Part shown: positions 15,225 to 16,585 of the stretch, piece after piece
Layout of the letters: every line of letters begins with the position of its first letter
Position numbering within the stretch: the stretch's first letter is position 1
DNA from: a virus
Lineage: Duplodnaviria; Caudoviricetes
Length of the DNA: 64,000 nucleotides
Reading direction: 5' to 3' (one strand)
Virus record (IMG/VR): IMGVR_UViG_3300031851_000001
Notes under the pieces: model-generated
Told to the model about the DNA's origin: nothing
Databases searched by the model: none
Seen by the model: the letters and a program-made list of their open reading frames with translations, nothing else
Position numbers and translations under genes: made by a program

Positions 15225-15287
15225 CTATTGACATTCTCCTTAGAATCAGTTATATTGATTATATAAACAAATGGAAAGAGAATCAAA
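15221..15287 (+). promoter_or_regulatory. Repeated early promoter cassette, copy 5
   Basis: TTAACTATTGACA-17-TATATT with TAGAATCAGT. Confidence 0.8.
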
Positions 15288-15446
15288 ATGCGTATCGTAA
15301 TTAAAGACATTATGAAAGTTTGTAAATGCTCAGACAAAGTTGCACTTAACATTGAAGAGCAAATGGAAATTGAAGGTTTTGATTTTTCTCAGGCAACTAA
15401 AAAAGAATTTCGCATTGCTGCTAAATTCGCTATGATGGAAATATAA
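15288..15446 (+). CDS. Small hypothetical early protein (52 aa)
   Basis: Manual translation MRIVIKDIMKVCKCSDKVALNIEEQMEIEGFDFSQATKKEFRIAAKFAMMEI. Confidence 0.6.
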   Translation: MRIVIKDIMKVCKCSDKVALNIEEQMEIEGFDFSQATKKEFRIAAKFAMMEI

Positions 15447-15464: not shown

Positions 15465-15791
15465 ATGAAAACAGTAATTAAAGCAAGTGACGTTGGAAGC
15501 ACACTAACACATAAGCCAAACAATCGTGCAAAGGCAGTGTTTAAAACACTAGACCAAGGTCAGTATGCTATTGAAGCAAAAAATATTTTGATGGAAAATG
15601 TTAAAACTGGCGAAGTATGGGAACTTGGCTCTTCCACACCAGTATACTCGAAAGAGTTAATTGAATATCAAATGTTAATGCCAAAGGATCGTCTATTAGA
15701 AACATTTCCTGGGATTGTAGGAAAGTTTTTTGAAAGCCGAGGAACGTGGTCCGACAAAGACGAGTGGAACGTAAAGTACACTCGAGCATAA
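15465..15791 (+). CDS. Hypothetical protein
   Basis: SD AAAGGA; 108-aa ORF. Confidence 0.6.
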   Translation: MKTVIKASDVGSTLTHKPNNRAKAVFKTLDQGQYAIEAKNILMENVKTGEVWELGSSTPVYSKELIEYQMLMPKDRLLETFPGIVGKFFESRGTWSDKDEWNVKYTRA

Positions 15792-15794
15792 TTC

Positions 15795-16062
15795 AGAGGC
15801 GGGTATTAGAGAGTAAAGACTAATATCGGCCAATGAAAAGCCTAACAGCCAATGTACAAGGTTTTGTTAGGTGGGTATAATCGCCGGTACCGAAGGAAAC
15901 CCGGACGTTTGCTACTAACGAGATTGTAGATAAGGGGAGAGGCACTGCAGAAAGTCTCTCCCACGAAAACTATATTAACCTGCGTCTTGCAAATGAGGGA
16001 ACCGGACCTAAACTTTGCCAGACAATATCGTCAAAGAACCAAGGCGCAGATTAATATAGTTT
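15795..16062 (+). ncRNA. Candidate structured non-coding RNA(s) upstream of tRNA-Pro
   Basis: ORF-free, GC-richer, several hairpins including GGGAGAGGC/GTCTCTCCC (15935-15962) and a 22-bp closing stem 15967-16062. Confidence 0.5.
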
Positions 16063-16064
16063 AA

Positions 16065-16141
16065 CAGGGTGTAGCTCAGTATGGTAGAGTGTCGCACTTG
16101 GAATGCGAAGGTCGTTGGTTCAAGTCCAGCTACCCTGACCA
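16065..16141 (+). tRNA. tRNA-Pro(UGG)
   Basis: CAGGGTG/TACCCTG acceptor, TCGCA-CT TGG AA-TGCGA, GTTCAAGTC, encoded CCA. Confidence 0.95.
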
Positions 16142-16205
16142 ATTGGCAGGATCAGCCTAGGAGAGGTGTAACACACAGCCTAAAGATCACATAGAAGACC
16201 CGAGT

Positions 16206-16240
16206 AATAGGGAGGTTATTAATTTAGCCTCCCTATTTTT
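16206..16240. terminator. Probable bidirectional intrinsic terminator
   Basis: AATAGGGAGGTT...AGCCTCCCTATTTT stem between convergent units. Confidence 0.75.
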
Positions 16241-16243
16241 GTT

Positions 16244-16585
16244 TTATTTTTTGCCTACTGCATCAGCAGCAAAGAATGCTGAAACCAATACCGCAATTGA
16301 TGCAAAGTATGTTGGTGCAATATCAGCAACTAATCCAGCCGCTGTGTCTAAGTTTAACCAAGAAGTTAAAATGATTGCTAATGGATATACTAATAATCCA
16401 ATAAGTGAAAACCAAGCCATTTTACGGATAGCGTCACGCTGAGCGTCTTTATCCTCTAATGCTTTGCGTTTGAATTCTAAATGCATTGCCATTTCTTCAG
16501 CTGAGATATGACCGTCTCCGTTCACGTCAATAGCTGCCGCTGCTTCTGCATCGATAGTTGTCTTGTCTGCCATGTTATTCTCCAT
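16244..16585 (-). CDS. EF-hand-containing two-TM membrane protein
   Basis: DVNGDGHISAEE canonical EF loop plus two hydrophobic segments. Confidence 0.65.
   Translation of the reverse strand: MENNMADKTTIDAEAAAAIDVNGDGHISAEEMAMHLEFKRKALEDKDAQRDAIRKMAWFSLIGLLVYPLAIILTSWLNLDTAAGLVADIAPTYFASIAVLVSAFFAADAVGKK

What the first reader, a model, noticed from the sequence alone, without database searches (positions are those of the whole stretch)
15795..16062. Candidate structured ncRNA(s) before tRNA-Pro
Seen: about 270 nt without an ORF, holding hairpins GGTATTAG/CTAATATC, CCTAACAG/TTGTTAGG, CCGG/CCGG, CTAC/GTAG and GGGAGAGGC/GTCTCTCCC. A 96-nt element follows, closed by 12+10 bp (AAACTATATTAA-C-CTGCGTCTTG with CAAGGCGCAG-A-TTAATATAGTTT) and ending 2 nt before the tRNA. 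Established: T4 tRNA clusters contain stable RNAs of unknown function. Inference: one or two stable RNAs released by tRNA processing, possibly decoys for host nucleases or RNA polymerase.
Basis: partly seen in the sequence, partly recalled or inferred. Interest (0 to 1): 0.6.

Follow-up and report, generated by a model that had tools for sequence, protein, structure and literature searches.

The report
Self-pairing structured RNA in marine phages
The gene-free stretch before tRNA-Pro encodes a new, strongly conserved folded RNA of uncultured marine T4-like phages whose two hairpin tips always stay self-complementary, so copies probably clip together, as the giant phage RNAs GOLLD and ROOL do.

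Summary
Window 15795-16062 folds far better than shuffles (z -5.1) and matches no Rfam family.

About 100 marine viral and metagenome contigs carry homologues. These show a modular RNA.
- Module A (15841-15966) is the conserved core. 98.5% of cells are paired against 42% or less in slid controls, and 19 pairs show compensatory changes.
It also covaries, but it is one of at least five interchangeable "cargo" arms and is sometimes absent.
- The tRNA is optional. Close relatives lack tRNA-Pro cleanly, and others carry Trp, Thr, Ala or Asn tRNAs.

The key new result concerns the loops. The P5 loop hexamer is self-complementary in 46 of 46 distinct sequences while switching among CUGCAG, CCUAGG, CUCGAG and GCUGCAGC. 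The P1 loop switches among UGUACA, GGAUCC, CGUACG and CCUCGAGG. Adjacent bases cannot pair within one molecule, so this points to symmetric kissing between copies.

Best reading: an early-transcribed stable RNA that forms homo-oligomers. Its function is unknown. By sequence, the scan has noted this RNA only on this same genome.

The parts
15228..15256 (+). Sigma-70-like early promoter cassette (TTGACA-17-TATATT) that probably drives the unit. Two small ORFs (15288-15446 and 15465-15791) lie between it and the RNA.
   Evidence: One search gives an 11/12 match and one search shows the sequence. The same cassette lies about 25 nt upstream of hairpin P0 in locus L004.
15798..15831 (+).
   Evidence: About 10 loci share it, and the basal pairs change compensatorily (GGC/GCC, AUGC/GCAU, AAAC/GUUU), read directly. 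Other loci have an unrelated hairpin in this position.
15841..15871 (+). P1 hairpin of module A. Its 9-nt loop is AA-UGUACA-A, with the self-complementary hexamer at 15853-15858.
   Evidence: 4 of 7 outer pairs and both inner pairs covary. Loop variants are GGAUCC, CGUACG and CCUCGAGG.
15874..15891 (+). Proposed pseudoknot PK1: GGUA (15874-15877) pairs with UACC (15888-15891), the first four loop bases of P2.
   Evidence: helix 4: 100% paired, with only one-sided A-to-G changes. GGUACC stays invariant even when the search pattern did not require it. This pairing is inferred, not proven.
15884..15904 (+). P2 hairpin (CCGG/CCGG) with a conserved 13-nt loop.
   Evidence: helix 5: 100% paired. The second pair is C-G in 24 sequences and U-A in 23.
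15906..15929 (+). PK2, an H-type pseudoknot. Stem 1 is 15906-15909/15917-15920. Stem 2 is 15912-15915/15926-15929.
   Evidence: helices 6 and 7: 97.8% and 100% paired, and two pairs covary in each stem.
15935..15962 (+). P5 hairpin (9 bp). Its 10-nt loop is A-CUGCAG-AAA, with the self-complementary hexamer at 15945-15950.
   Evidence: helix 8: 99% paired, 4 pairs covary. The loop hexamer is self-complementary in 46 of 46 distinct sequences and occurs in 4 forms (helix 9, 71).
15967..16062 (+). Module B, type B1: a 22-bp A/U-rich clamp stem (15967-15989/16040-16062) closing a three-way junction. The junction holds helix 15990-15993/16014-16017, hairpin 15997-16009 and hairpin 16021-16032.
   Evidence: 21 predicted pairs, 7 covary; 99.8% paired against 43% or less when slid, and 6 pairs covary. 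Other loci hold other cargo types in this slot, or nothing.
16065..16141 (+). tRNA-Pro(UGG) with encoded CCA. It is an optional cassette inserted between modules B and C.
   Evidence: The alignment with L001 shows a clean indel.
16142..16205 (+). Module C, a conserved 3' element of the RNA and tRNA unit.
   Evidence: found in 15 distinct contexts. The enclosing stem covaries (GAUC/GAUC, GGAC/GUCC, GAAC/GUUC, AGUG/CACU).
16206..16237 (+). Intrinsic terminator: a 13-bp stem followed by a U tract.

Best explanation
Window 15795-16062 encodes a modular, phage-specific non-coding RNA. It is transcribed early from the promoter at 15228, ahead of tRNA-Pro and a 3' element with a terminator. The conserved core, module A (about 125 nt), folds into a compact body made of two hairpins (P1, P5), hairpin P2 locked by a local pseudoknot, and an H-type pseudoknot. 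P1 and P5 each present a 9-10-nt loop with a central self-complementary hexamer flanked by A residues, the same layout as the HIV-1 dimerisation loop. These loops most likely pair with the identical loops of other copies through symmetric kissing. The RNA would then exist as a homodimer or, because there are two such contacts per molecule, as a closed ring or larger assembly. Module B is a swappable arm held by a long A/U-rich clamp stem, and the assembly would display it. RNase P cutting at the tRNA 5' end (16064/16065) would set the 3' end here. What the assembly does (scaffold, sponge or container for tRNA-related factors) is unknown. Shown here: the fold, its modular build, the optional nature of the tRNA, and the maintained self-complementarity of the loops. 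Inferred: transcript stability, processing sites and physical oligomerisation.
For: The region folds with z -5.09. Module A was found in 73 and 24 hits at 96-167 bits in marine viral and metagenome contigs, plus 3 hits at 113-154 bits in a metagenome-assembled genome (MAG). There is one copy in the window. The full structure is 98.5% paired against 42% or less in slid controls, 19 pairs show double changes, and 0 of 500 shuffles reach the observed values. Many G-U pairs make the structure specific to the + strand. The P5 loop hexamer is self-complementary in 46 of 46 distinct sequences, as CUGCAG, GCUGCAGC, CCUAGG or CUCGAG; two of its three mirror positions covary, including the two adjacent central bases. 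On a tree built with the loops masked, CCUAGG sits in at least 3 separate places. L045 and L046 are almost identical outside this loop. The P1 loop switches among UGUACA, GGAUCC, CGUACG and CCUCGAGG. The same argument, covariation of adjacent loop bases between palindromes, was validated by cryo-EM for OLE and GOLLD. Those RNAs are likewise phage RNAs near tRNA islands, with tRNAs sometimes inside the GOLLD linker (bioRxiv 10.1101/2024.12.08.627333 / PMC12286853). Module B covaries. All tRNAs found near the RNA lie on the same strand. A promoter and a terminator bracket the unit.
Against: No physical evidence of oligomers exists. In one clade (L083, L087, L102, L104) the P1 tip can instead close as a stem with a triloop, so the P1 contact is not universal. 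Two major loop types also differ in the flanking bases and stem tops, so part of the loop variation is inherited by descent or spread by recombination rather than independent. A dimeric protein that recognises palindromic loops would explain the same pattern. Function is not addressed by any result.
Confidence: 0.55

Rival explanations
1. The RNA is a stable, monomeric structured RNA. Its palindromic loops are binding sites for a symmetric (dimeric) phage or host protein, so the RNA acts as a protein sponge or cofactor and does not pair with itself.
For: The conservation and covariation are the same as for the best explanation. Palindromic sites are typical of dimeric binders.
Against: A protein site would be expected to keep its sequence. 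Here the hexamer changes completely (CUGCAG, CCUAGG, CUCGAG) and keeps only self-complementarity. No conserved neighbouring protein gene was found: the flanking genes differ between loci and have no PHROG family of known function.
Confidence: 0.2
2. The region is a cis-acting processing and stability element of the early transcript. The long A/U clamp stem would be an RNase III site, and the compact core would protect the upstream mRNA 3' end or help tRNA maturation. There would be no trans function.
For: A 22-bp stem with one internal mismatch lies directly 5' of the tRNA. The position between ORFs and a tRNA resembles phage T7 and T4 processing sites (established knowledge).
Against: Loop and junction sequences are invariant across contigs whose flanking genes are unrelated. 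Module A occurs without module B, without a tRNA and behind its own promoter (L004, L015, L017). Two pseudoknots and maintained palindromes go well beyond what a nuclease site needs.
Confidence: 0.15
3. The region is a riboswitch or other cis-regulator of the downstream gene.
For: In many loci the RNA ends 3-10 nt before a ribosome-binding site and start codon.
Against: The downstream partner varies: at least four unrelated small genes, tRNAs of seven kinds, or module C. The ribosome-binding site is not part of any conserved helix. There is no match to any riboswitch family.
Confidence: 0.05
4. The region is non-functional: decayed tRNA genes or a chance fold.
For: It lies in a tRNA region. 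Decay of phage tRNA genes is known.
Against: Hits score 96-167 bits across about 100 contigs, with compensatory changes in every helix. There is no tRNA-like signal.
Confidence: 0.02

Closest known systems
GOLLD and ROOL RNAs (Rfam families; cryo-EM in PMC12286853)
   Same: They are phage-encoded and lie beside or around tRNA genes. They have pseudoknotted folds and a conserved domain joined to a variable or linker part that can hold tRNAs. Symmetric kissing loops between copies are supported by palindrome-to-palindrome covariation.
   Different: There is no sequence or structure match. The core here is about 125 nt (about 270 nt with P0 and module B), against about 580 and more than 800 nt. 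Assembly has not been shown here. The hosts and phage lineage differ: these are marine T4-like phages related to pelagimyophages.
Stable RNAs of phage tRNA clusters: T4 rnaC/rnaD (species 1 and 2) and T5 RNAI, RNAIII, RNAIV, RNA1, RNA2, RNA2H, RNA3 and RNAX
   Same: All are non-coding RNAs embedded in phage tRNA transcription units, transcribed with tRNAs, and of unknown function (annotations).
   Different: They are not homologous: the module A model gives no significant hit in the T4 or T5 tRNA regions. T4 rnaC ends in a tRNA-like T-arm and rnaD in CCA. The window RNA has neither.
HIV-1 dimerisation initiation site (DIS) kissing loop
   Same: It is a hairpin loop of 9-10 nt with a central 6-nt self-complementary sequence flanked by A residues. 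Alternative palindromes occur in different lineages (from my own knowledge of the DIS).
   Different: It is unrelated in origin and context. Here there are two such loops per molecule on a pseudoknotted body, in a DNA phage.
phi29 packaging RNA (pRNA)
   Same: It is a small phage RNA of about 120 nt that forms rings through intermolecular loop-loop pairing (my own knowledge).
   Different: pRNA uses two different, mutually complementary loops and sits on the portal of a phi29-like packaging motor. T4-like phages package without an RNA. There is no sequence match.

Membership tests
GOLLD / ROOL | Match to the Rfam covariance models | tested here: not met
   There was no hit at gathering score in the whole window. 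There was none at E up to 10 in 15600-16400 or in the relatives' loci.
GOLLD / ROOL | Encoded in phages next to tRNA genes | tested here: met
   tRNA-Pro starts 2 nt downstream. tRNAs lie within 600 nt downstream or 200 nt upstream, on the same strand, in about 24 of 65 contexts.
GOLLD / ROOL | Homo-oligomer held by symmetric kissing loops | tested here: inconclusive
   The sequence signature is present: self-complementarity is maintained with covariation in the loops of P5 and P1. Physical assembly cannot be tested with these tools.
GOLLD / ROOL | Large size (more than 500 nt) with many helices | tested here: not met
   Module A is 125 nt. P0, A and B together are about 265 nt.
T4 rnaC/rnaD stable RNAs | Sequence and structure homology | tested here: not met
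   cmsearch with model R1, filters off, on the T4 tRNA region gave a best score of 6 bits, E 0.87, and that hit lies outside rnaC/rnaD.
T4 rnaC/rnaD stable RNAs | Co-transcribed with tRNAs and matured by tRNA-processing enzymes into a stable species | not testable with these tools
   The genomic arrangement fits. No transcript data are available.
6S RNA (RNA polymerase decoy) | Match to Rfam 6S models; long rod with a central open-promoter-like bubble | tested here: not met
   There was no 6S hit at E up to 10. Module B is a clamp stem closing a three-way junction, not a bubble.
HDV-like (theta) ribozymes next to phage tRNAs | Nested double pseudoknot (P1, P2, P3, P1.1, P4 order); Rfam HDV-type models | tested here: not met
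   There was no Rfam hit. PK2 is a plain H-type pseudoknot with no hairpins inside its loops.
tRNA or tRNA-like RNA | Cloverleaf, or T-arm plus acceptor stem | tested here: not met
   ARAGORN and the Rfam tRNA model hit only 16065-16141.
DIS-type kissing loop motif | Hairpin loop of 9-10 nt with a central 6-nt palindrome flanked by purines | tested here: met
   The P1 loop is AA-UGUACA-A and the P5 loop is A-CUGCAG-AAA.
Riboswitch / cis-regulatory leader | Constant association with one class of downstream gene | tested here: not met
   The downstream neighbours differ between loci.

The most novel reading that the evidence does not exclude
A minimal (about 125-nt) natural RNA building block assembles through two different symmetric kissing loops into closed rings or cages. 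Alternative palindromes act as lineage-specific assembly codes that keep co-infecting phages' RNAs apart. A plug-in slot displays interchangeable cargo arms, including a tRNA-like domain, and tRNAs are attached. This would be a small, tractable counterpart of the GOLLD and ROOL nanocages, and it would link them to the 50-year-old puzzle of stable RNAs in phage tRNA clusters.
Probability: 0.3. Interest if true: 0.85.

Novelty: new variant of a known kind. Interest (0 to 1): 0.68.

Why it matters
Phage tRNA clusters have been known since the 1970s to hold stable RNAs of unknown function. In 2025 two giant phage RNAs found beside tRNA islands were shown to be self-assembling cages, but their role is still unknown.

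This RNA is small, abundant in ocean metagenomes and cleanly modular. It also carries a testable sequence signature of self-assembly, with natural "allele" switches. That makes it a convenient system for several questions.
- Why do phages build RNA assemblies around tRNAs?
- What decides assembly specificity?
- What do the swappable arms bind?

It also adds an unannotated gene family to marine T4-like phage genomes.

Tried and rejected
**Database and homology searches that found nothing**
- Rfam gave nothing except tRNA and tmRNA, both at gathering score and at E up to 10, on the window and on relatives.
- blastn against 50,697 phage records matched only the tRNA.
- The module A model is absent from the cultured relatives Mosig, Melnitz and HTVC008M, from the T4 tRNA region and from the T5 tRNA region.
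- A scan of prokaryote genomes found copies only in three contigs of one Rhodobacteraceae MAG, probably binned phage DNA, plus one chance match.

**Tools or data that were unavailable or uninformative**
- A PHROGs scan of ten neighbouring proteins gave one weak hit of unknown function.
- No supplement is held for the catalogue of 10,006 viral RNA candidates (PMC10690425). I could not check whether this motif is listed there.

**Ideas considered and rejected**
- Intramolecular kissing of GUAC in the P1 loop with GUAC in the P2 loop. The P1 loop changes to GGAUCC or CCUCGAGG while GGUACC stays fixed.
- The promoter-like TGTACA-17-TATAAT at 15853-15881. Its -10 part is not conserved.
- The 25-codon ORF at 15852-15929. 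Indels in relatives break its frame.
- Pairing of module C with module A or B. No convincing duplex was found.
- HDV-like or group-I-like ribozyme readings of the pseudoknot and of the large cargo arms. There is no model match.

Full report
**1. Observation**

The 96-nt element at 15967-16062 is closed by 12 bp, a C/A mismatch and 10 bp. It ends 2 nt before tRNA-Pro(UGG), which lies at 16065-16141. No meaningful ORF lies in the stretch. The 274-nt region folds at -88.4 kcal/mol against -62.7 +/- 5.1 for shuffles, z -5.09. Rfam 15 has no family for it at gathering score or at E up to 10.

**2. Setting**

The window shares 71-74% DNA identity in scattered genes with Pelagibacter phages Mosig and HTVC008M and with Methylophilales phage Melnitz, all Kyanoviridae. 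It is therefore a marine T4-like phage.

A sigma-70-like promoter cassette lies at 15228-15256. Two small ORFs follow, then the RNA, then the tRNA. After the tRNA come a conserved 3' element at 16142-16205 and an intrinsic terminator at 16206-16237. In locus L004 the same promoter cassette lies directly upstream of the RNA. Loci L015, L017 and L077 also carry a promoter-like cassette just upstream. The RNA therefore belongs to an early transcription unit and can be a unit of its own.

**3. Homologues and modular build**

Pattern scans of IMG/VR and of metagenome contigs found about 100 marine contigs with the element. Some of these contigs are 104-160 kb long. They show three separable parts.

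- *Module A (15841-15966)* is present in every locus. A covariance model built from 17 sequences recovers 73, 24 and 3 hits at 96-167 bits. It finds a single copy in the window.
- *Module B (15967-16062)* occupies a slot that holds different inserts, each closed by a similar long A/U-rich stem.
  - The window type is B1.
  - B2 is a related type.
  - B3 and B4 are larger, at about 125-150 nt.
  - B5 has a T-arm and an acceptor-like stem.
  - Some loci carry two inserts in tandem and some carry none.
- *The tRNA is optional.* L001, L069 and L085 have module B followed directly by the 3' element, a clean indel of tRNA-Pro. Other loci carry Trp, Thr, Ala, Asn, Arg or Gln tRNAs, always on the same strand. 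Many loci run straight into a ribosome-binding site and a gene.

**4. Structure of module A**

The model is as follows.
- Hairpin P1.
- A conserved GGGUAU linker.
- Hairpin P2.
- An H-type pseudoknot. Stem 1 is CGUU/AACG.
- Hairpin P5.

On 47 distinct sequences, 98.5% of cells are paired against 36-42% when partners are slid. Nineteen pairs show compensatory double changes, and 0 of 500 shuffles reach the observed values (an earlier count on 17 sequences is). Both pseudoknot stems covary. Frequent G-U pairs show that only the + strand folds.

A second, local pseudoknot is proposed: GGUA of the linker with UACC at the start of the P2 loop. It is 100% paired but shows only one-sided changes. GGUACC stayed invariant even in a search that did not demand it.

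**5. Structure of module B**

The clamp stem has 21 predicted pairs, of which 7 covary across B1 and B2 types. Within B1, the three-way-junction model is 99.8% paired against 43% or less when slid, and 6 pairs covary.

**6. Self-complementary loops**

The P5 loop reads A-CUGCAG-AAA. In 46 of 46 distinct sequences the hexamer at this aligned position is self-complementary. The counts are CUGCAG 40, GCUGCAGC 3, CCUAGG 4 and CUCGAG 2. Treated as mirror pairs, the hexamer is 100% paired, and two of the three positions covary, including the two adjacent central bases (helix 9).

On a tree built with the loops masked, CCUAGG appears in at least three separate places. L045 and L046 are almost identical except for this loop.

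The P1 loop, AA-UGUACA-A, behaves the same way. Its variants are GGAUCC, CGUACG and an 8-nt CCUCGAGG in a differently sized loop. In one clade the tip can instead close as a stem with a triloop.

Adjacent bases cannot pair within one hairpin loop, so maintained self-complementarity points to pairing between two copies. The same reasoning was applied to OLE and GOLLD and was confirmed by their cryo-EM structures (PMC12286853). That paper also notes that GOLLD and ROOL are phage RNAs near tRNA islands, and that tRNAs sometimes lie in the GOLLD linker.

**7. Mechanism proposed**

Module A is an assembly domain. Its pseudoknotted body holds two DIS-like loops that make symmetric kissing contacts. 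This would give a dimer or, with two contact types per molecule, a closed ring or larger assembly. Module B would be a displayed, exchangeable arm.

In this window the 3' end would be set by RNase P at the tRNA. The long clamp stem might also be an RNase III site. Both processing points are inferences. Function remains open. I rate the self-association reading at about 0.55. That the region is a real, conserved structured RNA is close to certain.

**8. Comparison with known RNAs**

- T4 rnaC/rnaD and the T5 stable RNAs share only the context.
- GOLLD and ROOL share context and the inferred mode of self-association, but not sequence, fold or size.
- The 6S, HDV-like, tRNA-like and riboswitch readings fail the tests listed under Membership tests.
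- The element is absent from the cultured relatives Mosig, Melnitz and HTVC008M.
- It is absent from 50,697 phage records at blastn sensitivity.
- Among prokaryote genomes it occurs only in three contigs of one MAG, probably mis-binned phage DNA.

I found no paper describing this RNA. It may be among the unnamed candidates of PMC10690425, which I could not check. By sequence, earlier notes of this scan hold it only for this same genome. Notes on other phages describe comparable modular RNA units and a T5 RNA with self-complementary loops. I use those as leads only.

**9. Limits**

There are no expression data and no physical test. Part of the loop variation follows clade structure. Recombination of the hairpin tip, rather than repeated mutation, could explain why CCUAGG recurs. 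Either route still requires selection for a self-complementary loop.

Noticed in passing
window 16142-16237: A conserved 3' element (module C) followed by the terminator closes the RNA and tRNA unit. It recurs in 15 distinct contexts. Its enclosing 4-bp stem covaries (GAUC/GAUC, GGAC/GUCC, GAAC/GUUC, AGUG/CACU). It has no Rfam match.
   Followed up: partly
window 16063-16141 compared with L001:1755-1760, L069 and L085: tRNA-Pro behaves as a cassette dropped exactly between module B and module C. Close relatives lack it cleanly. L046 has Thr, Ala and Pro tRNAs at the same spot.
   Followed up: partly
L017:12598-12725, and also L015, L070, L074, L077, L081: In these loci the module-B slot holds an unannotated tRNA-like domain. 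It has a T-arm with a GGUUCAAUUCC-type loop and an acceptor-like stem that continues into the clamp stem, with one compensatory change between L017 and L077. ARAGORN and the Rfam tRNA model do not call it.
   Followed up: partly
L018:10090-10250, L044, and the second insert of L025: A larger cargo arm of about 150 nt shares the GAGGG...CCUAAA motif of the window's module B. It also has a GCAA-capped hairpin and a GAGAUACUAG segment that loosely recalls group I intron cores. No Rfam hit was found at E up to 10.
   Followed up: partly
L004:1722-1848 and L063: A further conserved element of about 125 nt lies between module B and tRNA-Pro in these loci. It was not analysed.
   Followed up: no
alignment A3 columns 121 and 129 (window 15944 and 15951): The bases flanking the P5 loop palindrome change together: A with A in 24 sequences, U with U in 16, G with C in 3. 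This would fit their facing each other across a symmetric duplex. They also track the two main clades, so the signal may be inherited by descent.
   Followed up: partly
L123, L124, L125 (Rhodobacteraceae bacterium Water_Bin34 MAG): Three contigs of one MAG, with very different coverage (5x, 9x, 64x), each carry a copy of module A. These are probably phage contigs binned with a bacterial genome, and at most a weak hint about the host.
   Followed up: no
window 15853-15881: A promoter-like TGTACA-17-TATAAT overlaps the P1 loop palindrome. The -10 part is not conserved in relatives, so it is probably a by-product of the RNA sequence.
   Followed up: yes
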